IMG/VR virus record: IMGVR_UViG_2671180847_000010
Span: 1 to 22,159 of that record
Strand: one strand, 5' to 3'
DNA length: 22,159 nt
Origin: a virus
Lineage: Duplodnaviria > Heunggongvirae > Uroviricota > Caudoviricetes
A program made the translations under genes and the position numbers. Under the pieces are notes generated by a model. It saw only the letters and a program-made list of their open reading frames with translations, was not told the origin of the DNA and did no database searches. Positions 2,631 to 13,029 of this stretch are shown one piece after another; the first letter of the stretch is position 1, and each line of letters opens with the position of its first letter.

Positions 2631-4538
2631 CTAAGCATTAAACCCTCCGACTCTTACTTTTAACGTGGTAAGCTTAGTATTTACTGTTATTTTTAAAGTT
2701 CCCGAGCCTGCAGCAACAGAGAATAAGCGGCGACCTCCAGATGTACCACCTCCAGCAGGAGGGGTGGTATCGAGTTCGCCTGTGATCGATATTGAAATGG
2801 TACCCTCACGGTTAGCAACGAGTAGCTCTAAACATTCAGCCCAGGTGTTTTGTGCAGAAGACCAAGCATCGATAAGGATTCTCTGTGTCGTTCTGTTTGG
2901 TATTGCGATGGATTTTACTTCACCTTCATTTACCAGACCTTGAAAACGAGTTCCATAATCTATCCAGCTAATGTTATAACCTGCATTTGTTGCAGGGTCT
3001 TGAGAGGTATACCAGGTCTGGGTTCGCACTCCAGTTTGACCGATTGTCAGTAGAGGACGAGCAAACTGATCGCGGTGAATGTATGCGTTAGCCCTTATTC
3101 CATTGCTTTGCAGATCTATATCTGCTGTTCGAGGGTTAGGAAAAGTAGCTTTTCCACCAACATCAAAAACATCATAATGATTTGCAACTGCAGGAATCCA
3201 TCCGTTCCTGTCCAGATTTCTAAAGAAATCCTCGAAAGCCAGCCAGTATGATTGCTGATGACCTAAAAGGTTAGGGTGAACAGTCTGTATTTCAGGGGTC
3301 CGGTCAAATAATGCCGTTTCACCATATTTAGCAACAGCATCAAACCAGTATTTTTCCACATCGATAAGCACGCAACCCATTTCTACAGCGATTTTCCTGA
3401 TCGCATCGTTTCCTCGAAGGAAGCGGACACCTGCTTGAATATTTACCCCATTCCACTCAAACGTGACATTTGAGTTTGCGGCAGATGGTATAATGTCATT
3501 ATCAGAGACTGGGGCCGGAGAAGATGAAGGCCATATTTGAGAAATTCCAGCCGGCATGCTCCAGCTATATTCAGAAATATTCGGATGAGGTGTGGTTGTT
3601 AGCACAACATCCCCGCCGGCCTCCCTGACTAAATTAATAGCATTTCGAAGGCGCTGTTTAAATCCGTTTTCATTGAATGTTTGCCCGGCATTATATTGTG
3701 CGGTAGGAAAATCATTCATTCCATATATAAACAAAGCAATATCAGGATATATTCCTTCAGTAACAACTTCAGGCCATTGGTTAACAATAAAATTATTTAT
3801 CGTTGAACCATTAACAGATTTGTTTGTGAAGTTAATGGGATAAATACGCTGCTTATTTAACGTATCGTTCATATACTCAAAAAATTTAGCAACTGGTGCC
3901 TGTGTTGCTGGATCAGGAAGCGTAGCACCAACCCCAACAGAAGAACCAAACCCATAGAGTCGAAATAAGTTCTGATAGCCAGAAACCCCATGCCGATAAG
4001 CTGTTAATTTATTGACGAAATTTGGGAAAAGGGCCTGTGATGATCCAGACGCAGCACGAATAGAAGCCTCTACCGTTCTTCCTGTTTCAGTCGCAACTAG
4101 GCTAGCACCTTCTTTTGAAGATAATCGGCAGTTAAAATCTGATATCTCATCAATTTCTGATTGTATTGCTGCCAGTAGCTCATCTACGTAGTGACGTAAC
4201 TGGTCAGGCTCGTATTTTAGAACATTAGGAAAATAGAACTGCTGAGCACCATATGCATCATAAACAGCCATAGAATGGCCTTGCACAGTAACGAACTTGG
4301 CAATCTGCCCGTTATATACCGGATATCCAGCAGCGTTAATGATGATTGGTTGCGAAACAGGAACATGAGAGCCGTCTTCGTTCTCTACATAAACCTGAAT
4401 CTGGTTTTCTGGACTTACCGGGTCAGTGTCAATTTTACCGATATAAATTTTTCCATTGGCTACGGCTTTAAAAGAACGAGCCATAGTGAAGAGTTGCGAA
4501 GGCATGCTTACCACAACATTGGCTGTAATGTCTGTCAT
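2631..4538 (-). CDS. Tailspike protein: P22-like head-binding N-terminal domain fused to a non-P22 receptor-binding region with SGNH-hydrolase-like motifs
   Basis: N-terminal ~115 aa ([11 protein letters not shown]...[18 protein letters not shown]...[11 protein letters not shown]) matches the conserved P22 gp9 head-binding domain as I recall it. Downstream region carries ordered motifs GFGSS (aa 196-200), NGST (243-246), GMND (273-276, nt 3711-3722) and VHP (420-422), resembling SGNH blocks I, II, III and V. Confidence 0.9.
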
Positions 4539-4670: not shown

Positions 4671-4928
4671 ATGATGTACAGCAAATACGATGAGGCGCAG
4701 TTCCACTTGAGGCTTACGCACGAGTTGCACGCTAAGATTAAGCAACGTGCAAAAATGAATAACAGGTCTATCAATTCCGAAATTGTGGCTACGATGGAAG
4801 AATCACTCTCCAAACCATCACCTGTAAGCGGGTATCGTGATGAAGAAGAGAGGCTGGCCTCATTAATCTCGGAACGAGTAAAAGAAGTTGTGGCTGATAT
4901 CCTTAGAAAAGAAAAAACCCGCAATTAA
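4671..4928 (+). CDS. mnt: Mnt-like ribbon-helix-helix repressor (immI-type)
   Basis: 85-aa product with an RHH N-terminus (FHLRLTHELHAKIKQRA..NNRSINSEIVATMEESL) and the segment SKPSPVSGYR, closely resembling P22 Mnt as recalled. SD GAGG 5 nt upstream of ATG 4671. The track's 217-aa ORF (4275..4928) is an upstream extension that overlaps the tailspike in antisense. Confidence 0.8.
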   Translation: MMYSKYDEAQFHLRLTHELHAKIKQRAKMNNRSINSEIVATMEESLSKPSPVSGYRDEEERLASLISERVKEVVADILRKEKTRN

Positions 4929-4942: not shown

Positions 4943-5164
4943 TTAGTTATCAAAAAGTCCGTACGTTTCTTCTTCTTCAGGTGTAAGGGGAAGAATCTCT
5001 ACTCTATCTATAGATACCTTTTCAATGTACCCATGAGGTCTACTTAAAATTAAAGCTCTCTCATGCCACAGAACTCCAAGAATGTGATACCTTCCAGCAT
5101 CTCCTTTTACCCTGGCTCTTCCTTTGATTCTTGGCGGCATAATGCCATATCTTTTCTTTGCCAT
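4943..5164 (-). CDS. Hypothetical 73-aa protein, translationally coupled to the upstream antirepressor gene
   Basis: Start ATG overlaps the stop of the upstream gene (TAATG arrangement at 5162-5166); ORF ends just before the operon terminator. No recognisable domain. Confidence 0.5.
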   Translation of the reverse strand: MAKKRYGIMPPRIKGRARVKGDAGRYHILGVLWHERALILSRPHGYIEKVSIDRVEILPLTPEEEETYGLFDN

Positions 5165-5889
5165 TATGCAACATTGCTCCCATGAATCAGGTGTTGTAGT
5201 GCTTTAACACCCTCCGCATTGTAGCGGAATGCTTCCACCTGTTTGCTTGAATGCGCAGATTTATCCAAGAAGAACTTCCCGTACTGCTCAGTTTTGAGGT
5301 TGTTTGCGTTAGCAATGCGACCAATCTTGTTTGCCGTTACTCCAAGCTGCTCTGCAACCTCCCCTGCTGAGTAGTAATGCTCTTCTATTGCTGGAAGAGG
5401 TATTGCATTAAAACCAACTATCGGGTTGATTATGCTTGCTGCCGCAGTCTGCTTTGCTTCCGGCGCAAGATTTGGCATCAAATCTAACAGATTGGTAACA
5501 GCTTCAACCGTCATTTTCAATGTTCGAGCCTGGCGATACTCAACAAGTCCACTCGACGATTTACCGCTTTTAATGTGCGCTTCTTGCATACTTTCAAGTT
5601 TGTCTACAAGTGTTCGGCGAACTGCTTTAGATTCGCGAGCAGCAACACGAAGCGCCTGCTTGATAGTCATGGAGATAACATCAATGTCAGCCCCGTTTTT
5701 CCGACCTACACTTTTTGTGTAGGTCTCGCCCTCCAATTCATCCTCAATTTTCTCGATGAATTTGTTGTTACGTACTGATGGCTCTCCACATAACTTGCGA
5801 GCTTCATTAACCATCATCAGAAGACTTTGGCTGTCAATGGTTTTATCCGTGACAACGGATCCGATGTTTGCTACATTCTTCAAAGTCAT
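5164..5889 (-). CDS. Putative phage antirepressor (Ant/KilAC-like C-terminal region)
   Basis: 241 aa from ATG 5889 with SD AAGGAA upstream (track ORF begins further upstream at 5940). C-terminal segment YSAGEVAEQLGVTANKIGRIANANNLK... resembles KilAC/ANT antirepressor domains; domain call is from memory and needs a profile search. Confidence 0.7.
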   Translation of the reverse strand: MTLKNVANIGSVVTDKTIDSQSLLMMVNEARKLCGEPSVRNNKFIEKIEDELEGETYTKSVGRKNGADIDVISMTIKQALRVAARESKAVRRTLVDKLESMQEAHIKSGKSSSGLVEYRQARTLKMTVEAVTNLLDLMPNLAPEAKQTAAASIINPIVGFNAIPLPAIEEHYYSAGEVAEQLGVTANKIGRIANANNLKTEQYGKFFLDKSAHSSKQVEAFRYNAEGVKALQHLIHGSNVA

Positions 5890-5977: not shown

Positions 5978-6604
5978 TCAATGAATCCATTCCTCGCCGC
6001 GCAGTTTTGTCAGCATTGGCTGAGCGTTCTTTACGACAAAATTGTTGGTATCAAGATTCTTCATTTCACGAAGAAGTGATTTCTTGGTTTCTTCTGACAT
6101 ATAGCGAGTCTCATATGCAATATCGTAAATTCTTCCTGAAAGCTCAGAACCAATTTGCTTCATTCCTGGGTAGATGTGTTTGCACATTTGTTGACTCTTC
6201 TCCATCCACAATTGTAAGTAGCAGAGATTAACCAGTTCTTCGTCAGTAAACTGTTTTGCAATCGGTGAGCATTCTGCCTGCCGATCCAAAATATCCAGCA
6301 CCCAGCGGCGGAACTCTTTGGCTACCGGAGTGCGAGCAAACATCGCGATTAGGTGGGCACCGCGTAGTGAGAAAACTCGCACTTTTTTGCGATAATTTCC
6401 TGAGGTACTCACTTCGAGTACCTGAGTCATTCCGGCGCTAAACTCATCGCTATACTTGTTATAAATCATTGTTACTGCACGGCTATTTGCATATTTAAGT
6501 GCAGATGCAATATTAGATGATGTAAACCAAACACCATGCATATCACGGGTGGGCACCAACTCAACTCCGTGGAAGTTGTAATCTGATTTTGCTACAATAT
6601 TCAT
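5978..6604 (-). CDS. Bro-N domain protein (antirepressor-like)
   Basis: Bro-N signature (..GVWFTSSNIASALKY..KKVRVFSLRGAHLIAMFARTPVAKEFRRWVLDIL..). Start placed at ATG 6604 preceded by SD AAGGAA; the track ORF starts at an upstream TTG (6709). Confidence 0.8.
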   Translation of the reverse strand: MNIVAKSDYNFHGVELVPTRDMHGVWFTSSNIASALKYANSRAVTMIYNKYSDEFSAGMTQVLEVSTSGNYRKKVRVFSLRGAHLIAMFARTPVAKEFRRWVLDILDRQAECSPIAKQFTDEELVNLCYLQLWMEKSQQMCKHIYPGMKQIGSELSGRIYDIAYETRYMSEETKKSLLREMKNLDTNNFVVKNAQPMLTKLRGEEWIH

Positions 6605-6677
6605 GTTAGTTTCCTTGCATACGGTTACTGACATAGAGGCCCGGTTTGTGTTCGCGCACTGCCGGGCTTCACTATTT

Positions 6678-6851
6678 TTATTGGATGACAACATCGCCCT
6701 TTGCCTCAAGTTTCATCAATAACTCCATTCGATAAGCTATCTCTGCCTGAATTGACCTATGGCATCTTTTTGCTGATTCGCGGATATGTGAATCAACCTT
6801 TTCTGTAAAACGAACCTGACGCGGCTTGATGGAAGATATCTTTTCAGTCAT
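6678..6851 (-). CDS. Arc-like ribbon-helix-helix protein (57 aa), first gene of the antirepressor operon; absent from the ORF track
   Basis: Hand translation of the minus strand: MTEKISSIKPRQVRFTEKVDSHIRESAKRCHRSIQAEIAYRMELLMKLEAKGDVVIQ. SD AGGAG 6 nt upstream of the ATG. RHH pattern (beta strand QVRFTEKV, then two helices) and RSIQAEIAYRME resemble P22 Arc RSVNSEIYQRVME as recalled. Below the track's apparent 60-aa cutoff. Confidence 0.6.
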   Translation of the reverse strand: MTEKISSIKPRQVRFTEKVDSHIRESAKRCHRSIQAEIAYRMELLMKLEAKGDVVIQ

Positions 6852-6950: not shown

Positions 6951-7592
6951 ATGAATTTTGACGATCAATTCCCATCAAGAGTATCTCTGGCAAGACAGTC
7001 CAGGGGTATGACGCAGGCGCAGTTGTCAAAATTAGCTGGTGTTGTTCAACGTCAAATAGCTGCATACGAGGGTGGTGAGGCTAAACCACGGCTTCGTGTA
7101 TTGCAGGCATTAGCCAACGCATTAGGCACTACGGCTGAGTGGTTAGCTCTGGGTGAAGGTCAGGGGCCTGGAACAAAAAACGTCATGCCTGACGTTCTGG
7201 TAAAGCAAATACCAATCCTCAAACTAGATGAAGTTATGCATTACCTAAACACAGGTGAACATTCATCGTCTAGATTTCATCCGGCAATATACAATGTTGG
7301 TGACTCTGCATTTGCATTGACTATTGAAGGTGAAGCTATGACTACAAGTTCAGGTATTAGCTTTCCCAGAGGATCAGTTGTCACGTTCAGCCCTCTAGTA
7401 AAAGCTAAAAGCAAAGATTATGTAATAGCATCATTGGATAAAGAGCAAATATTGAGCTTCAAGCAGGTTTACATTGGTGAAATAGAGACAAACTTAGTAT
7501 CCCTAAACCCAATGTATCCTAATATTCTTGTTAGAAATGAAGATGTTAGTATTTTGGCAACCGCAGTTTACCTTGAAATCCCGTTGCTTTGA
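6951..7592 (+). CDS. CI/LexA-like repressor: XRE-type HTH plus peptidase S24-like domain with Ala at the nucleophile position (predicted non-cleavable)
   Basis: N-terminal HTH (MTQAQLSKLAGVVQRQIAAYE). C-terminal region aligns by eye to lambda CI: DSAFALTIEGEAM vs CI DSAFWLEVEGNSM, SFKQV vs TFKKL, LNPMYP vs LNPQYP. Nucleophile position is Ala129 (codon gct at 7335-7337); Lys171 is retained; no Ala-Gly in the linker. Confidence 0.9.
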   Translation: MNFDDQFPSRVSLARQSRGMTQAQLSKLAGVVQRQIAAYEGGEAKPRLRVLQALANALGTTAEWLALGEGQGPGTKNVMPDVLVKQIPILKLDEVMHYLNTGEHSSSRFHPAIYNVGDSAFALTIEGEAMTTSSGISFPRGSVVTFSPLVKAKSKDYVIASLDKEQILSFKQVYIGEIETNLVSLNPMYPNILVRNEDVSILATAVYLEIPLL

Positions 7593-7652
7593 TATCCTTT
7601 AGGAAGCGACACATTATCATCCGGTGTTCTGCTCAAAACTAAGGAGGTTGGT

Positions 7653-8042
7653 GTGAAGCTATTTCTTGCTGCTATGTTCTTATTCATATCTTTTGGGGCT
7701 ACAGCAGAGTGCTGGGTCGTTGGAGATATGCGCGGAATAAGCTATTCAGAACGAAATAATTTCCATCCGGAAGAAGATGGTTTTAGTGGAACATTCATCA
7801 TTAAGACAAGCGGTGAAGATGCTAGCATCACATATTCTGGGACAGATGCGGGCGGCATGGCTTACAAAGTATTGTCTAAAAACTCCATCATAGGAATCGG
7901 CGCGAATGGCGAAACTCAACGCGTTATCGACTCATGGGTAATACATCCTACTGGAACAGTTTTAATGTCAAAAACCATTTCCGGTTATGGAAATATGGAT
8001 TCAACCAAAGCTTTTGTTGGAAAAGTAAAAAGAAAATGTTAA
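7653..8042 (+). CDS. Hypothetical exported protein (signal peptide), probably co-transcribed with the CI-like repressor
   Basis: GTG start 5 nt after a strong SD AAGGAGG. N-terminus MKLFLAAMFLFISFGATA-E looks like a Sec signal peptide with an A-x-A cleavage site; two Cys in the mature part. No terminator between it and the repressor gene. No recognisable domain. Confidence 0.7.
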   Translation: MKLFLAAMFLFISFGATAECWVVGDMRGISYSERNNFHPEEDGFSGTFIIKTSGEDASITYSGTDAGGMAYKVLSKNSIIGIGANGETQRVIDSWVIHPTGTVLMSKTISGYGNMDSTKAFVGKVKRKC

Positions 8043-8063: not shown

Positions 8064-8249
8064 TCAACAGGTTCCGCGCCCCTGAGTAATTCTGTTGCGG
8101 ATTTGCTTCTTGCGGTGGTTTAAGCTGGATAGCTTGGCTTCTGCTTCTGATATTTGCGCATCTAGATCTTTAAGCTCAAGATCTGAAAGTCGCTGGTCAA
8201 GCAGGGTTTGATTCAACTCAATGTTGTTCAGGCGTTCTTCTATGGTCAT
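8064..8249 (-). CDS. Hypothetical 61-aa coiled-coil protein
   Basis: ATG preceded by a strong SD (TAAGGAG, 6-nt spacer); heptad-like Leu/Ile spacing. It lies directly after a terminator U-tract with no room for its own promoter, so expression is uncertain. Confidence 0.35.
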   Translation of the reverse strand: MTIEERLNNIELNQTLLDQRLSDLELKDLDAQISEAEAKLSSLNHRKKQIRNRITQGRGTC

Positions 8250-8265
8250 GATTTCTCCTTATAAA

Positions 8266-8287
8266 AAACCCACCTGACGGTGGGTTT
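8266..8287 (-). terminator. Rho-independent terminator after the lipoprotein gene (possibly bidirectional)
   Basis: Stem AAACCCACC / GGTGGGTTT, 4-nt loop. On the minus strand it is followed by a U run (TTTTTTAT), 9 nt after the lipoprotein TAA. On the plus strand it is followed by TTTCATTTCTT. Confidence 0.7.
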
Positions 8288-8293
8288 CATTTC

Positions 8294-8713
8294 TTAATCT
8301 TGCTTTGTAGACGGTATAAGGGATGCGTTTGCCTCTTTTGGCTTCAAGGTATACATCCCACCATTAAATGGATCAACAGCAAGCCAACCAATTAACCCAC
8401 CAAACACAAGGTTTCCACCAATATACCAACCATTAGCATTGGCTTTGATTGGCAGGGTAACTGGTTCGTACCCATCCTTCTCCATAGTGATCTGGTAGCT
8501 CTTTTTGCCAAAATAACTACCATCTGACTTGGCAAGAGTTACTCCTTGCGGGGTCTTACCTTGCGCAACAATCACGCCTGATTCGTCTTTTACCTTAAAG
8601 CTCGCACCGGAAGGATTGCTGTTCACTTGCACAAGCTGTGTTTCGTCACCAACAATAGTTGCGCACCCAGATAACATGATAGCGCCAGCAACGACGCTAA
8701 TAATCCTCTTCAT
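8294..8713 (-). CDS. Prophage lipoprotein with PEGA-like motif, insulated accessory gene
   Basis: MKRIISVVAGAIMLSG-C has a lipobox (LSGC) after a hydrophobic signal. Segment NPSGASFKVKDESGVIVAQGKTPQGVTL...KDGYEPVT resembles the PEGA motif. Start at ATG 8713 (track ORF starts 4 codons upstream at 8725). Own terminator downstream; 83-bp non-coding spacer upstream. Confidence 0.78.
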   Translation of the reverse strand: MKRIISVVAGAIMLSGCATIVGDETQLVQVNSNPSGASFKVKDESGVIVAQGKTPQGVTLAKSDGSYFGKKSYQITMEKDGYEPVTLPIKANANGWYIGGNLVFGGLIGWLAVDPFNGGMYTLKPKEANASLIPSTKQD

Positions 8714-8808
8714 ATCAATTTCCATATCTAAAAAACCGGAAACATCCTAATGACAAACCATTCAAATGTGAAGCACGAGATAAGATCAATCCATCCGTGG
8801 ACGACTAA

Positions 8809-10977
8809 TTACTCCTGTGTCATTCCGCTTAGCGATACTACAATCCCAGCCCTCGACAAACGCTGGAACTCTTCGTTTCCTAGTGCATCGCGAATTGCTT
8901 TTACGGCGGCCTTATTTGCCATAAATCTGCGTTCCGCCGCCGCTAATGCGCCATCACTTGCCCCAACCTTAACTGCCTTTGTTGCCTCTTGAACAGCCTT
9001 TTCAATAGCGTAACGACCACTTCTGGTTGCGGATAATTTCGCTATCGATCCTTTTGCTATCGCATCAATTGCTCCACCTGCAGCGCCACCAACTATTGCT
9101 CCAATAACACCTCCTCCAGAGAACCCTGCGATAGCGCCAGCGGTTGGAAAAGCGCCAGACAATACGCTCTCTAAAACTGGATGAAGGCCATTCTCAAGAG
9201 TGCTAATGGCTGGCATAGAGCGCCCTGTCTGTTCAACATATCGAAGTGGCTTTGTTGCAGCTCTTGCAAGTTCTCCGTATGAACTTGTAATCCTGCCAAG
9301 TTCTGGAGAATATCGACTAATTGCCTTCACGTTTTGTGGGGTAAGAATAGTCGCGATATGCTTAATTCCAGCCCCTTCAGACTTACCTCCGCGTACCCCT
9401 TGCGATACCGCATCTTGTAATATTGATGCAATTGCTGGCGCGCGTTCCGACTCAGGTAGGGCGCTTATTATTTTATGAAACTGACCTGTTCCACTTTTTG
9501 CTGAGCCCTGTAACGCCTTAGAGCCATTAGTTACTAACTGATCAGTTGCAAGGTCTCTACCAAACGCTGCTTCAGCCTGTTCTTGTGCTGTAAATCTTGC
9601 CTTTGACAGATCATTAGCTTTTTGCCAGTCATCAAGAAAACCGCCATTTTGAGCCATTATGCGCATATCTTCCGTTGCTGCATCACGAAGCTCAGCCATG
9701 CGCCTTGCCGTATTTGCCTCACCAGACCTTATATACTTCTGCTCTGCGTCAGCAAGTTTACTTCGCCATGCCTTCATGGCATCAAACGTGATTCCTTTTT
9801 TACCAGTTTTAGCATAAGCAGATGCGAATTGTTTCATCTCAGGAGTTAGCGGCATGCCAGCCAAAATATCACCCTGAATTGTAGCGTTCAGGTTTGACAT
9901 TCTGGCCTTTGCGTCAGGCATCGTGGAGCGGACGCTATCCCATGCGGCCTTTTCTGAATTTTTCATTTTATCAATGCTTGCCAAAACCCTCTGTTTTATG
10001 GCTGCACTTTTTTCTGATGCAGTTCCTGCTTCAGCCCCAAACTCATCCAATGCTGAGTTAAATTTCGACTCTATTTCACTGAATGCTTTGGTGTGTGCAT
10101 CCTGTGTAATTCCGGGCTTTGACGCCAGAATCCCCTCCGCCTGAGCAAGACCACGACTACCTGATCTCATGCCAGGAGTTAATGCGTTGATATCTATTCC
10201 AGCAGTATCTGCTGCTTTTGCTATTTCGTCTGACACGTTAGCTGACTGTCTGGCAATAATCTCTCTTCCTGTACCAGACTTTGCCATTTTCGAAACATCA
10301 TTAGCAGAATTCAGTGCTGCACCACCAAGAGCCTGTGAAACCCTTGGCGCAATAACGCGCCCGACACCTGAAAGAACGCCTTGAGCACCAATATTGATAC
10401 CACCGTTAATGGCAGCATTTTGTGCAAAGTCGCCCTCCTGATTTGCAGCATCAGCAAGAGAACCTGCAATCATGTTTCCTGCGGAACCGATATCTCCAGC
10501 GAGCTTTGCTGTCGCTCCAGCAGCTTTTGCCGCTGTGCCAATTGGCAGGAGATACCCACCAAATGTTTCACCGGCTTGCGCCCAACGGTCTGTCGGTCGA
10601 TCGACAGGGCGATAAACATCATCCAAAACCTTGGGGCCACCAAGCCCATGGCTGATTGCATTAATCAGACTTGCGCCACCCTGCAATACGTCAAATGGTA
10701 TGTTTACCAGACCACGACCAGCCTGTTCTGCAATTTGCCCTGCACTTTGACCACCTGTGAGCCAATCGCCAGCTTGTTGCATCAATGATGGTTCTTCTTT
10801 CTGCTGCTGATGCGGAGGGTATGCAGCATAAAACTGATCTCTTGCTTCAGCCCATTTGTCACCAGCCTTAGGGGCAACAACCTCATCAAAATATTGCGCT
10901 TGAGCCTGTGCTTTCTGTTCTTCAGTTAACGCCTGATACTGTGGAGAAGCGATAACATCTTTCCATGCTTTAGCCAT
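8809..10977 (-). CDS. DNA ejection (internal virion) protein, P22 gp16-position
   Basis: Last gene of the late operon, in the position of P22 gene 16. Start overlaps the gp20 stop (ATGA). Gly/Ala-rich hydrophobic segment near the C-terminus. Confidence 0.85.
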
Positions 10978-12326
10978 TAATCACCCCATAAAGACGAGAA
11001 ACCGGACTTATTGCTGTCGCTTCCTGATTTTCGCTCACTAACATATGTGTCATAACCTGATGAACTATATCCCATTGATTCAGCCTCCCTTGCTGCAACC
11101 TTTTGAAATACAGAATATTGCGATCGGATTTCAGATAACTGTTTTCTGACGACCTCTTCAGGCTGTGTTATATCGAGTTTCGCGATCAGGTTTTCCAGTT
11201 TTTGGCCTTCAGCATTGGAGAGGCTACCCATACCTCGCATAGTCTGCACGTTCTGGACAAACGCACCCGACTTTAATTCTTCTATCGCATTACGGTTTGC
11301 AAGCCCTTCAGCACTTGTGAAGCCATCTATATTTCTTCCTTCGAAGCGACCGATACCTTCAAGCTCCTTCTTACCAAGCAAAGAATCAATTTTCTCTATC
11401 CCTCGCTCACCAGTAATCAACGCATTGTTGTAATTATTGTTGCCATCAAGCCATCTCTTAGCCTGAGACATTCTGGCTGACGTTGCAGCTTTACCGGTTA
11501 GAGGATCAATTCCCGTCGCTGCTATCTGTGAGTTAAGAGACAAAACATCCATATCCTGAAGTTGTCCTGCTCTTTCAAGGGCCGCCTGTGACTGCTTAAA
11601 CACATACTTGTCGTGATTCAGTCTTGCCATTTGAGCCTTATAGGAAAGATCCTGCCCCCTAATAGCCCTCGCATTCGTCATGTCATTATTGCGAATGGTT
11701 TCGTTAATTCTTTGCTGCTCCTGCTGGCGACCAACCATCTTATCCTGAACAGCAAAAGCCTTTTCTGGCCCAAGTGCACCGAGAGACATAGTAGTCAGCA
11801 TGTGTGATAGCTGCTCTGGATTCTGGATACCTGTCTGAATCATCCAGTCAGCATTCGCACCCACGCGATTTAACCTGTCCTTGTTGTCAGTAATGAATTT
11901 ACTGTAGGCTTCCGGTCCCTGAGAAAGAGCGACGTTAGCTCTCATGGCTAAATCGCCCATATCGTTGCGTTGCTGCTCATTAAGACCGGAAAACGCCTGT
12001 TGTGCCTGTGCAACAAACGCTGGATTTTCCTGGGCAAACTTAAATAGTCCCGATGGATCACCAGAAGCCCATGCATCAGCGTGAACCTTATTGAACGCAC
12101 TAATCGCTTTCTGTTGCTGTTCCTGCTTATAAATATCAGCAACTCCAGCCAGACCACGTAATGCGGTCAGACCAACGTTATTTGCACCTGATCGAGCCAG
12201 TTCATTGTTTTCGCGGATCAGACCAAGCGTTGCGTTAATGTCGCTTGCCTTTGGCGCATTCTCATTTTGCGCACCGATGCCAGCCAGAAAACCACCAGAA
12301 TTAATACCCTGTTGCCACGTAGCCAT
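10977..12326 (-). CDS. DNA ejection protein, P22 gp20-like
   Basis: 449 aa, in the position of P22 gene 20 between gp7 and gp16 homologues; Gln/Ala-rich predicted helical protein. Confidence 0.85.
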
Positions 12327-12336
12327 TGATTACCCC

Positions 12337-13029
12337 TTAAAACAACGAGCCAAGCAGACCAAGACCAGCACCGATACCAGCACCCCACGGAGTTGATAGC
12401 TCGAGAGCACTGGCTATGCCACCACCCAAAAGCGCACCGGATGCAGCACCACTAACACCCTGCTGCAATGCTGACGGTCTGTTGGCATTTGCCGCTGCAA
12501 GAGCCGCACTTTGCTGCGAAATCTGACTCATGTTGTTGGCATATGTCTGCCCGGCGTTTGCCTGCCCCTGAAGAGCGCCAAGACCGATATTTGCCAGGTT
12601 GTTGTAATTGTTCATTTGTCCAGATAGCCATTGCTGACCAAGCGTTGGTGCGATTGTTGCTAACTGATTACTGGTTGCGGTGGAACCCAATCCACCTGTT
12701 GCTTCCGCTGCCGCCAGACTCTGATAGCGAGCCTGACCAGCAAGATCTTTGTACTGCTGAGAGTTGTAATACTGGTTAAGCGCCTGACCTTGCCCCTCCA
12801 GAGACGATAAGTTCTCGAGGCTGCCGACATACTTCTCAGCCAGAGGAGTAAACGGCTTCAGGTTATTCATGATGGTGTTGAACTGCTGATTTTGCAGGTC
12901 TGCGGCATACTTCTGAGCTTCTGCTGCATACTTAGCGCTTTTATCAGAACTGCCACCTTTCCCACCTTTTTCAGGGCAATAAGGTTCCTCGCCGCGCAGT
13001 TTTCTGCCCAGCTTAAATGCATATAACAT
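12337..13029 (-). CDS. DNA ejection protein, P22 gp7-like
   Basis: 230 aa; N-terminus MLYAF.LGRKLRGEE and Gly-rich hydrophobic C-terminus (..STPWGAGIGAGLGLLGSLF) as in P22 gp7 (recalled); correct operon position. Confidence 0.85.
   Translation of the reverse strand: MLYAFKLGRKLRGEEPYCPEKGGKGGSSDKSAKYAAEAQKYAADLQNQQFNTIMNNLKPFTPLAEKYVGSLENLSSLEGQGQALNQYYNSQQYKDLAGQARYQSLAAAEATGGLGSTATSNQLATIAPTLGQQWLSGQMNNYNNLANIGLGALQGQANAGQTYANNMSQISQQSAALAAANANRPSALQQGVSGAASGALLGGGIASALELSTPWGAGIGAGLGLLGSLF

What the first reader, a model, noticed from the sequence alone, without database searches (positions are those of the whole stretch)
7653..8042. Exported protein of unknown function co-transcribed with the repressor
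A 129-aa ORF with a strong SD, GTG start and a classical signal peptide sits 60 bp downstream of the CI-like repressor with no terminator between them. Genes expressed with a repressor in a lysogen are often exclusion or conversion functions (rexAB with lambda cI, for example). A periplasmic protein here is a candidate for blocking superinfection or altering the envelope. I recognise no domain, so it may be a novel family.
Basis: partly seen in the sequence, partly recalled or inferred. Interest (0 to 1): 0.55.

Follow-up and report, generated by a model that had tools for sequence, protein, structure and literature searches.

The report
Exported Hex-like prophage exclusion protein
The ORF is a real, exported small beta-barrel protein of a P22-like E. 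coli prophage; it is not a new family but a distant relative of phage 434 Hex, a lysogen-expressed protein known to exclude phage P22, and its features suggest that this family works in the periplasm, not in the cytoplasm as published.

Summary
ORF 7653-8042(+) has 129 codons, a GTG start 5 nt after AAGGAGG, a Sec-type signal peptide (cleavage ATA|EC), and lies 60 bp after an HTH+S24 repressor gene with no terminator between. It is under purifying selection (pN/pS 0.17; intact in all 80 IMG/VR copies).

It is not a novel family. It belongs to phrog_2651 with phage 434 Hex and Sf6 gp38 (27% identity; hhalign 98%). Hex is co-transcribed with 434 cI and is required for exclusion of P22.

Three corrections:
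- The repressor is not the main immunity repressor. It sits in the immI region in Mnt's place and lacks the S24 nucleophile Ser and the Ala-Gly cleavage site.
- Linkage to it is rare (2 of 80 viral loci; 2 of 5426 E. coli genomes). The constant neighbour is ejection gene 16 (73/80), the slot that sieA holds in P22.
- All 111 aligned family members keep a signal peptide, and 110 keep both terminal Cys. AlphaFold gives a closed beta-barrel (pLDDT 94). This fits poorly with the published cytoplasmic "repressor protection" mechanism.

Best reading: a periplasmic superinfection-exclusion moron. The mechanism is inferred, not shown.

The parts
7653..8042 (+). Hex-like gene, 129 codons plus stop. Signal peptide is codons 1-18 (7653-7706). 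The mature 111-aa protein (7707-8039) starts E-C-W and ends in Cys129.
   Evidence: ORF list. phrog_2651 at 4.6e-60. BLASTP against 434 Hex gives 27% identity, E 6e-11; hhalign probability 98.3%. AlphaFold models have pLDDT 86.5 and 94.3 and show a 9-strand closed barrel. pN/pS is 0.17.
7641..7647 (+). Shine-Dalgarno AAGGAGG, 5 nt before the GTG start.
   Evidence: Sequence. Conserved in all contexts compared.
7609..7658 (+). Shared leader and mosaic joint (leader, SD, GTG AAG). This is the only upstream sequence that travels with the gene.
   Evidence: Homology to other prophages starts at 7609-7635. Phage JEP4 keeps the repressor, this leader and GTGAAG, then continues into an unrelated 62-aa membrane ORF.
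7589..7617 (+). Weak sigma-70-like site TTGATA-17-CATTAT overlapping the repressor stop codon. A possible internal promoter, no better than chance.
   Evidence: 9 of 12 matches, and 5 sites found against 5.0 expected. The -35 part is not conserved in other contexts.
6951..7592 (+). Upstream repressor gene, HTH_3 plus an S24-like domain. It sits in the position that mnt holds in P22 immI. It is predicted not to self-cleave (GEAM instead of GDSM, no Ala-Gly).
   Evidence: Pfam. Alignment with LexA and 434 cI. P22 immI map.
6678..6851 (-). Arc-like ribbon-helix-helix gene, divergent from the repressor.
   Evidence: Weak Pfam Arc/ParD-like matches (0.011 and 0.0008) and phrog_10182. RefSeq annotates the homologue as an Arc family protein.
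5978..6604 (-). Antirepressor-like gene (Bro-N plus P22_AR_C). The probable start is the ATG at 6604.
   Evidence: Pfam. Sequence and SD at 6600-6615.
8064..8249 (-). 61-aa coiled-coil ORF (phrog_7586), convergent with the hex-like gene.
   Evidence: The same ORF is present in phage Emek.
8266..8287 (-). Strong rho-independent terminator that ends the late/ejection operon on the minus strand. It is the nearest hairpin downstream of the hex-like gene on the plus strand.
   Evidence: On the minus strand the stem is followed by TTTTTATAA.
8294..8725 (-). 143-aa lipoprotein gene (lipobox LSGC, phrog_6823) between gene 16 and the terminator. A second candidate envelope moron.
   Evidence: It is the neighbour of the hex-like gene in 21 of 80 viral loci.
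8809..10977 (-). Gene-16-like ejection (DNA transfer) protein gene. The hex-like gene is normally its convergent neighbour.
   Evidence: Synteny with gp20 and gp7. A gp16-like gene lies within 300 bp in 73 of 80 loci.

Best explanation
The ORF encodes a Hex-family protein: a small protein exported by the Sec pathway that folds in the periplasm into a closed beta-barrel, clasped by a disulfide between Cys20 (second residue of the mature protein) and the C-terminal Cys129. It is a moron of a P22-like (Lederbergvirus) prophage of E. coli. Here it has been joined, through a portable 45-nt leader, to the 3' end of the immI-region repressor gene, so it is most likely made in the lysogen by read-through from that gene.

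Its most likely job is superinfection exclusion from within the periplasm. It would bind a component that an incoming phage must deploy there, most plausibly the ejection proteins or channel, or a virion-borne wall hydrolase of P22-like phages, and so stop genome entry.

Status of each step:
- Shown here: the gene is real and under selection; the export signal and Cys pattern are conserved; the fold is predicted with high confidence; the ORF belongs to the Hex family; family members recur in lysogeny-expressed slots.
- Taken from the literature: 434 hex is co-transcribed with cI and is required for exclusion of P22.
- Inferred: periplasmic location, expression in this lysogen, the target and the step that is blocked.
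For: Family membership:
- Both the window ORF and 434 Hex hit phrog_2651 (4.6e-60 and 1.4e-58).
- BLASTP gives E 6e-11 and hhalign gives 98.3% probability.

Export:
- Signal-peptide features are present in 111/111 members.
- The Cys after the cleavage site is present in 111/111 and the C-terminal Cys in 110/111.
- A second Cys pair is present in 60 members and absent in 45, with 6 irregular cases.
- The sHex fragment recovered by Shkilnyj et al. starts at E43 of their 158-aa ORF. That is exactly the first residue after the predicted cleavage site ANS|ECW.
[quoted passage not shown] By inference this is typical of jamming the export machinery.

Fold:
- pLDDT 94.3 with 111 sequences; N-terminal helix plus nine strands.

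Lysogeny-type contexts in independent lineages:
- Behind cI in 434, Sf6, HK446, HK633, Sf101 and a 30%-identical metagenomic relative.
- In a repressor-side operon of another prophage.
- Next to rexA/rexB in a siphovirus tail region.
- Convergent with gene 16 in four divergent P22-like lineages, the slot that sieA holds in P22.

Other:
- Tandem paralogues at 36% identity and one contig carrying both the window type and the 434 type suggest target-specific binders.
- Phenotype and co-transcription of the prototype: PMC3564112.
Against: - No experiment places any family member in the periplasm.
- The only biochemical study assigns Hex a cytoplasmic activity, inhibition of RecA-stimulated cleavage of the 434 and P22 repressors.
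- The exclusion phenotype is known only for the 434 protein, which is 27% identical to this one. The step that is blocked was not available to me.
- Some family members are outside phages: an integron cassette and a chromosomal gene between atp and metA. The function need not concern phage.
- Expression in this lysogen is inferred only from the lack of a terminator.
Confidence: 0.55

Rival explanations
1. It is a periplasmic immunity or inhibitor protein against antibacterial enzymes rather than phages. Examples would be an orphan immunity protein against type VI peptidoglycan-hydrolase effectors, or a lysozyme inhibitor in the manner of PliC/MliC. The prophage would carry it to raise the fitness of the lysogen.
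For: - In 13 of 80 viral loci the gene directly follows a Rap1a-domain immunity gene on the same strand (Pfam Rap1a 9.7e-15).
- Family members also occur as an integron cassette and as a lone chromosomal gene.
- Tandem diverged paralogues are also typical of immunity gene arrays.
Against: - No sequence relation to MliC (hhalign 3%), and no Pfam MliC hit in 111 members.
- No effector gene lies next to any member examined.
- The only phenotype known in the family is phage exclusion.
Confidence: 0.2
2. It is a cytoplasmic 'repressor protection protein', as published for 434 Hex. It would bind the neighbouring S24-type repressor and prevent RecA-stimulated self-cleavage, stabilising lysogeny.
For: - Shkilnyj et al. 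2013 (PMC3564112) report three results: a hex replacement raises spontaneous induction 30-fold in recA+ cells only; a Hex fragment partly complements; and the fragment inhibits cleavage of the 434 and P22 repressors in vitro.
- In this window the gene again follows an S24-family repressor gene.
Against: - The signal peptide and paired cysteines are conserved across the family, which points to export.
- The active fragment sHex is only the first half of the barrel and was purified through guanidine.
- The hex mutant was a cat cassette with its own promoter and terminator placed just after cI. By inference, an effect on cI expression was not excluded.
- The repressor in this window has Ala in place of the nucleophile Ser and no Ala-Gly site, so there is nothing to protect.
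- 78 of 80 loci with this gene have no adjacent S24 repressor.
- Members occur in tail-gene regions, an integron cassette and a bacterial chromosome.
Confidence: 0.08
3. It is a periplasmic ligand-binding or carrier barrel (calycin, avidin or fatty-acid-binding-protein style). It would alter envelope physiology or virulence of the lysogen with no role in exclusion.
Against: - None of these matches is significant (Foldseek E >= 0.0096, TM <= 0.46).
- No ligand-handling genes are nearby.
- Recurrent placement in exclusion or defence slots is not explained.
Confidence: 0.1

Closest known systems
Phage 434 Hex (heterologous exclusion protein; annotated 'repressor protection protein'), identical in kind to Sf6 gp38
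   Same: - Same PHROG (phrog_2651). Alignable end to end, with the same signal peptide, the ECW start of the mature protein and the C-terminal Cys.
- Also placed just after an HTH+S24 repressor gene on the same strand.
   Different: - Only 27% identical.
- In 434 the gene overlaps cI by 4 nt inside the immunity region (immC) and is always linked to it (79/79 loci).
- Here it lies 60 bp after an immI-region repressor that appears unable to self-cleave. That linkage is rare, and the usual home of this subfamily is beside ejection gene 16.
P22 SieA (superinfection exclusion A)
   Same: - Same genomic slot: convergent with ejection gene 16, between it and immI (compared).
- Expressed from the prophage and acts at the envelope on incoming P22-like DNA (review PMC11436027).
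   Different: - Unrelated in sequence (hhalign 0.1%).
- SieA is an integral inner-membrane protein with several hydrophobic segments. The ORF here is a soluble exported barrel.
Lambda RexA/RexB and other genes co-transcribed with cI
   Same: Same logic of a non-essential gene riding on the repressor transcript in the lysogen. One family member lies next to rexA/rexB and others sit in the rex position behind cI.
   Different: No sequence or structural relation. Rex is a cytoplasmic/inner-membrane abortive-infection pair (established knowledge), not an exported protein.
T4 Spackle (Sp), and PliC/MliC lysozyme inhibitors
   Different: No detectable homology. Any inhibitory activity is untested here.

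Membership tests
Hex family (phage 434 Hex / Sf6 gp38; phrog_2651) | Sequence homology to 434 Hex over the full length | tested here: met
   phrog_2651 at 4.6e-60 for the ORF and 1.4e-58 for Hex. BLASTP 27% identity over 128 aa, E 6e-11. hhalign probability 98.3%, E 2.5e-14.
Hex family (phage 434 Hex / Sf6 gp38; phrog_2651) | N-terminal signal peptide, Cys at +2 of the mature protein, and a Cys at the C-terminus | tested here: met
   Present in the ORF, in Hex, and in 111/111 (N-terminal Cys) and 110/111 (C-terminal Cys) aligned members.
Hex family (phage 434 Hex / Sf6 gp38; phrog_2651) | Encoded downstream of a repressor gene and transcribed with it in the lysogen | tested here: inconclusive
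   Adjacency is met: a 60-bp gap with no terminator. Transcription cannot be tested with these tools. The repressor is an immI-type one, not cI, and the linkage is rare for this subfamily.
Hex family (phage 434 Hex / Sf6 gp38; phrog_2651) | Excludes a heterologous superinfecting phage (P22 in Salmonella) | not testable with these tools
   The phenotype is reported only for 434 Hex (PMC3564112, citing Susskind and Botstein 1980).
Hex family (phage 434 Hex / Sf6 gp38; phrog_2651) | Inhibits RecA-stimulated self-cleavage of its repressor | not testable with these tools
   This needs biochemistry. Indirectly unlikely here, because the neighbouring repressor lacks the Ser nucleophile and the Ala-Gly site.
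MliC/PliC lysozyme inhibitors (Pfam PF09864) | Match to the family profile or to E. coli MliC | tested here: not met
   No Pfam hit in the ORF or in any of the 111 family members. hhalign of the family against E. coli MliC gives probability 3%.
MliC/PliC lysozyme inhibitors (Pfam PF09864) | Small eight-stranded antiparallel beta-barrel | tested here: inconclusive
P22 SieA | Homology to SieA; integral membrane protein | tested here: not met
   hhalign probability 0.1%. SieA has several hydrophobic segments, whereas the mature ORF product has none.
P22 SieA | Gene lies convergent with ejection gene 16, on the immI side | tested here: met
   Met for the subfamily: 73 of 80 loci, compared with P22. 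In this window two small genes (8064-8725) lie between the ORF and gene 16.
Bacterial lipoproteins | Lipobox [LVI][ASTVI][GAS]C with the Cys at +1 | tested here: not met
Glu is the commonest residue there across the family (38/111). A few members do have A-G-C.

The most novel reading that the evidence does not exclude
The whole Hex family would be a widespread class of exported, disulfide-clasped beta-barrel proteins that block incoming phages from inside the periplasm. The family has at least 124 clusters at 50% identity and occurs in P22-like, lambdoid and siphovirus prophages and in an integron cassette. Different paralogues would be tuned to different phage ejection machineries. The published cytoplasmic 'repressor protection' activity of 434 Hex would then be a side effect of the constructs used. 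This would explain the 1980 hex exclusion phenotype and add a soluble periplasmic protein class to the known superinfection-exclusion mechanisms.
Probability: 0.35. Interest if true: 0.65.

Novelty: new member of a known kind. Interest (0 to 1): 0.45.

Why it matters
Hex was named in 1980 for excluding P22. It has had only one molecular study, which treated it as a cytoplasmic protein and used an ORF extended 24 codons upstream.

Three points here give a concrete, cheap set of experiments that could settle how Hex works. The family is uniformly signal-peptide-bearing with paired cysteines. It is predicted with high confidence to be a closed barrel. It recurs in the slots where prophages keep exclusion genes: behind cI, beside rexAB, and in the sieA slot next to the ejection genes.

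If the periplasmic reading is right, these proteins are probes for the least understood step of podovirus infection, the passage of the ejection proteins and DNA through the periplasm. They would also be a defence family missing from PADLOC 2.0.0, the only defence catalogue checked here (no hit).

For this window alone, the result is modest: a hypothetical gene receives a family name and a testable role.

Tried and rejected
- **Family libraries.** Pfam, NCBIfam and PADLOC gave nothing for the ORF. Pfam on all 111 family members gave only scattered chance hits.
- **Solved structures by sequence.** Nothing with the single sequence, and only E >= 0.35 with the family profile.
- **Specific family candidates.** The MliC/PliC idea was rejected on sequence. 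SieA homology was rejected. A lipoprotein reading was rejected because Glu precedes the Cys.
- **An own, conserved promoter.** Upstream sequences from seven contexts share only about 25-45 nt before the start codon. The one promoter-like site is at chance level.
- **Genome-contig scans.** Two ran and found no relative, probably because only one genome per species is held.
- **Word-indexed protein search with the family profile.** It added little. The full HMM scan was what opened up the family.
- **Tight functional pairing with the repressor.** Considered and rejected on the counts.

Full report
**1. Setting**

The window is one end of a P22-like (Lederbergvirus) prophage in an E. coli-type chromosome. 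From left to right it holds:
- a host formate/nitrite-transporter-family gene (1-933);
- an IntS-like integrase gene (1209-2402);
- a tailspike gene with a P22 head-binding domain and a GDSL esterase domain (2631-4538, minus strand);
- an immI-like regulatory region;
- the ejection genes gp16-like (8809-10977), gp20 (10977-12326) and gp7 (12337-13029), followed by further virion genes.

The closest phage records are JEP4, Emek, epsilon34 and ST-35. Two complete E. coli genomes carry the repressor-plus-ORF segment at 98% identity.

**2.

The ORF 7653-8042(+) has 129 codons and a GTG start, with AAGGAGG 5 nt upstream. The upstream ORF 6951-7592 matches HTH_3 and Peptidase_S24 and ends 60 bp before the GTG. 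That gap contains no terminator-like site and no structure beyond what shuffled sequence gives.

The N-terminus MKLFLAAMFLFISFGATA|EC has the three parts of a Sec signal peptide.

The gene is real. All 80 related IMG/VR loci keep an intact 129-codon frame starting at the same position, with GTG in 67 and ATG in 13. The pooled pN/pS against the window is 0.17 for the mature part. RefSeq annotates a later Met8 start, which the comparative data do not favour.

**3. What it is**

Pfam, NCBIfam, PADLOC and PDB sequence searches find nothing. PHROGs places the ORF in phrog_2651, annotated 'unknown function'.

A word-indexed search found only close relatives. A full HMM scan of 1.84 billion representatives found 124 cluster representatives, most of them full-length at about 120-160 residues.

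Using two distant members as tblastn queries against phage genomes led to the key result. The family includes the gene directly downstream of cI in phages 434, lambda-imm434, HK446, HK633, Sf101 and Sf6 (gene 38). In the 434 records it is annotated 'repressor protection protein'. This is Hex.

The relation of the window ORF to 434 Hex is direct:
- BLASTP gives 27% identity over 128 residues, E 6e-11.
- hhalign gives probability 98.3%.
- Hex itself scores 1.4e-58 on phrog_2651.

**4. What is known about Hex**

According to Shkilnyj, Colon and Koudelka (PMC3564112):
- Susskind and Botstein showed that Salmonella lysogenic for lambda-imm434 excludes P22, and that hex mutants do not. The name stands for heterologous exclusion.
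- RT-PCR shows that the PRM transcript runs through hex.
- Replacing hex with a cat cassette raised spontaneous induction 30-fold in recA+ cells only.
- Full-length Hex was lethal when over-expressed.
- A 6-kDa fragment, 'sHex' (E43-N103 of a 158-aa ORF), partly complemented the mutant. It inhibited RecA-stimulated cleavage of the 434 and P22 repressors in vitro, but not of the lambda repressor or LexA.

**5. The family looks exported**

I translated the DNA given in that paper. Their 158-aa ORF is the 134-aa protein plus 24 upstream codons that overlap cI. E43 is exactly the first residue after the predicted signal-peptidase site ANS|ECW. sHex covers only the first half of the barrel.

Across 111 aligned members:

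| Feature | Members |
|---|---|
| Hydrophobic core in the leader | 111/111 |
| K/R in the n-region | 109/111 |
| A, S, G or T at position -1 | 103/111 |
| Cys two residues after the cut | 111/111 |
| Cys at the C-terminus | 110/111 |
| Second Cys pair, about 10 residues apart | present in 60, absent in 45, irregular in 6 |

Paired, co-varying cysteines behind a signal peptide are the signature of a protein that folds in an oxidising compartment.

AlphaFold2 gives an N-terminal helix followed by nine strands forming a closed up-and-down barrel. pLDDT is 86.5 with 8 sequences and 94.3 with 111. The first and last strands are neighbours, so the two terminal cysteines can clasp the barrel. This last point is inference, because I could not read the model coordinates.

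Fold searches return only generic small barrels. The family has no relation to MliC.

**6. Where family members sit**

*The window-type gene (88-98% identical copies).* In 80 IMG/VR loci, the downstream neighbour is a convergent gp16-like ejection gene within 300 bp in 73. This is the slot that sieA occupies in P22, 22 bp from gene 16. SieA is an unrelated membrane protein.

The upstream neighbour varies:

| Upstream neighbour | Loci (of 80) |
|---|---|
| 143-aa lipoprotein gene | 21 |
| 121-aa hypothetical gene | 14 |
| Rap1a-domain immunity gene | 13 |
| SocA/Panacea-domain gene | 9 |
| P63C gene | 8 |
| mnt | 8 |
| ant | 4 |
| window-type S24 repressor | 2 |

Among 5426 complete E. coli genomes, about 120 carry most of the gene, but only 2 have it joined to this repressor.

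The only upstream sequence that travels with the gene is a leader of about 25-45 nt containing the SD. Phage JEP4 keeps the same repressor, the same leader and GTG AAG, but then continues into an unrelated 62-aa membrane ORF. The start codon region is therefore a mosaic joint, and the window's arrangement is a recent recombinant.

*Distant members (21-48% identity):*
- between gp16 and the tailspike in other P22-like prophages, once as two tandem paralogues 36% identical to each other;
- beside a tailspike remnant in Rahnella;
- overlapping cI by 4 nt in a lambdoid prophage, just before N;
- fourth gene of an operon, one of two transcribed divergently, in the early region of another prophage;
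- on the opposite strand inside a siphovirus tail-gene block, next to rexA/rexB in one variant;
- as a cassette in an integron array with 18 attC-like repeats;
- as a lone chromosomal gene between the atp operon and metA.

The 434-type gene is always directly behind 434 cI (79/79 loci with enough upstream sequence), but those loci are essentially one conserved module. One viral contig carries both the window type and the 434 type.

**7. The neighbouring repressor**

It lies divergent from an Arc-like gene (6678-6851) and an antirepressor-like gene (5978-6604). That is the position of mnt in P22 immI. An ordinary Mnt-like gene is also present at 4671-4928.

Aligned with LexA and two cI proteins, the repressor has GEAM where they have GMSM or GDSM. 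It also has no Ala-Gly in the linker, while the catalytic Lys is kept. It is therefore predicted not to self-cleave. If so, there is no RecA-driven cleavage for a 'protection' protein to prevent at this locus.

**8. Mechanism**

The best-supported reading is a periplasmic superinfection-exclusion protein made by the lysogen.

Expression is inferred from the missing terminator, from the known expression of the mnt-position repressor in P22 lysogens (established knowledge of immI), and from the 434 precedent. Action in the periplasm is inferred from section 5.

The target is unknown. Three things make the ejection apparatus or a virion wall hydrolase the most economical guess: the excluded phage in the prototype is P22; the gene's usual home is beside the ejection genes in the sieA slot; and diverged paralogues co-occur.

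Rivals are:
- an immunity or inhibitor protein against antibacterial enzymes, suggested by the Rap1a neighbour and the non-phage copies;
- the published cytoplasmic repressor-protection role;
- a ligand-binding barrel.

Their evidence is set out in the rival entries. I put about 0.9 on 'exported Hex-family barrel encoded by a prophage moron', and about 0.55 on the full statement including exclusion.

**9. Novelty and verdict**

The ORF is a new member of a known but poorly understood kind. Its 'novel family' suggestion and the weight it placed on the repressor linkage do not hold.

The point of wider interest is that sequence and structure evidence for the whole family conflicts with the only published mechanism for its prototype.

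Noticed in passing
window 6951-7592 (+): The HTH+S24 repressor has GEAM in place of the GDSM/GMSM nucleophile motif and no Ala-Gly cleavage site, while the catalytic Lys is kept. It is probably a non-cleavable pseudo-peptidase repressor. It occupies Mnt's position, divergent from arc/ant.
   Followed up: partly
window 4671-4928 (+): A separate Mnt-like Arc-family gene (85 aa, good SD) lies next to the tailspike gene. The ant operon is therefore flanked by two different repressor genes.
   Followed up: partly
window 2631-4538 (-): The tailspike combines the P22 head-binding domain with a GDSL esterase/acylhydrolase domain. This suggests a receptor-deacetylating rather than an endoglycosidase tailspike.
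   Followed up: no
window 8294-8725 (-): A 143-aa lipoprotein gene (lipobox LSGC, phrog_6823, weak PEGA match) is the last gene before the late-operon terminator. It is the divergent neighbour of the hex-like gene in 21 of 80 viral loci and is a second candidate envelope or exclusion moron.
   Followed up: partly
window 8064-8249 (-) and 8266-8287: A 61-aa coiled-coil ORF (phrog_7586) with a good SD lies just downstream of the strong minus-strand terminator. The same terminator-then-orf61 order is seen in phage Emek.
   Followed up: no
window 7609-7658; L002 (JEP4) 5010-5242: The leader, SD and GTG AAG form a portable joint. JEP4 has the same repressor and leader but a different downstream ORF, a 62-aa hydrophobic protein (phrog_21338). 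This looks like cassette-style swapping of morons at a shared translation start.
   Followed up: partly
L085 and L176 (both from IMGVR_UViG_648276644_000012): One 41-kb viral contig carries both a window-type hex-like gene (near the ejection genes) and a 434-type hex gene (behind cI).
   Followed up: no
L017 3359-3745 and 3778-4164: Two tandem family members, 36% identical to each other, sit between gp16 and the tailspike in a P22-like prophage. Each has its own signal peptide and terminal Cys pair.
   Followed up: partly
L014 1-10010: A family member (P0044) is one cassette in an array of small same-strand genes separated by 18 copies of a 75-nt attC-like repeat, that is, a chromosomal integron.
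   Followed up: partly
L021 7559-8822: rexA and rexB homologues lie inside a siphovirus tail-gene block, immediately beside a hex-family gene. A sister prophage (L020) has two unrelated small genes in their place. This looks like a defence or moron hot spot.
   Followed up: no
proteins P0012, P0014, P0016-P0022: Several E. coli clusters are frameshifted or truncated versions of the gene. One of them has 642 member sequences and a replaced C-terminal strand. The gene therefore decays in some prophages.
   Followed up: no
L007 4350-5341: In one subgroup (13 of 80 loci) the order is mnt, a Rap1a-domain T6SS-type immunity gene, then the hex-like gene, all on one strand. This subgroup has a different signal-peptide sequence.
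   Followed up: partly
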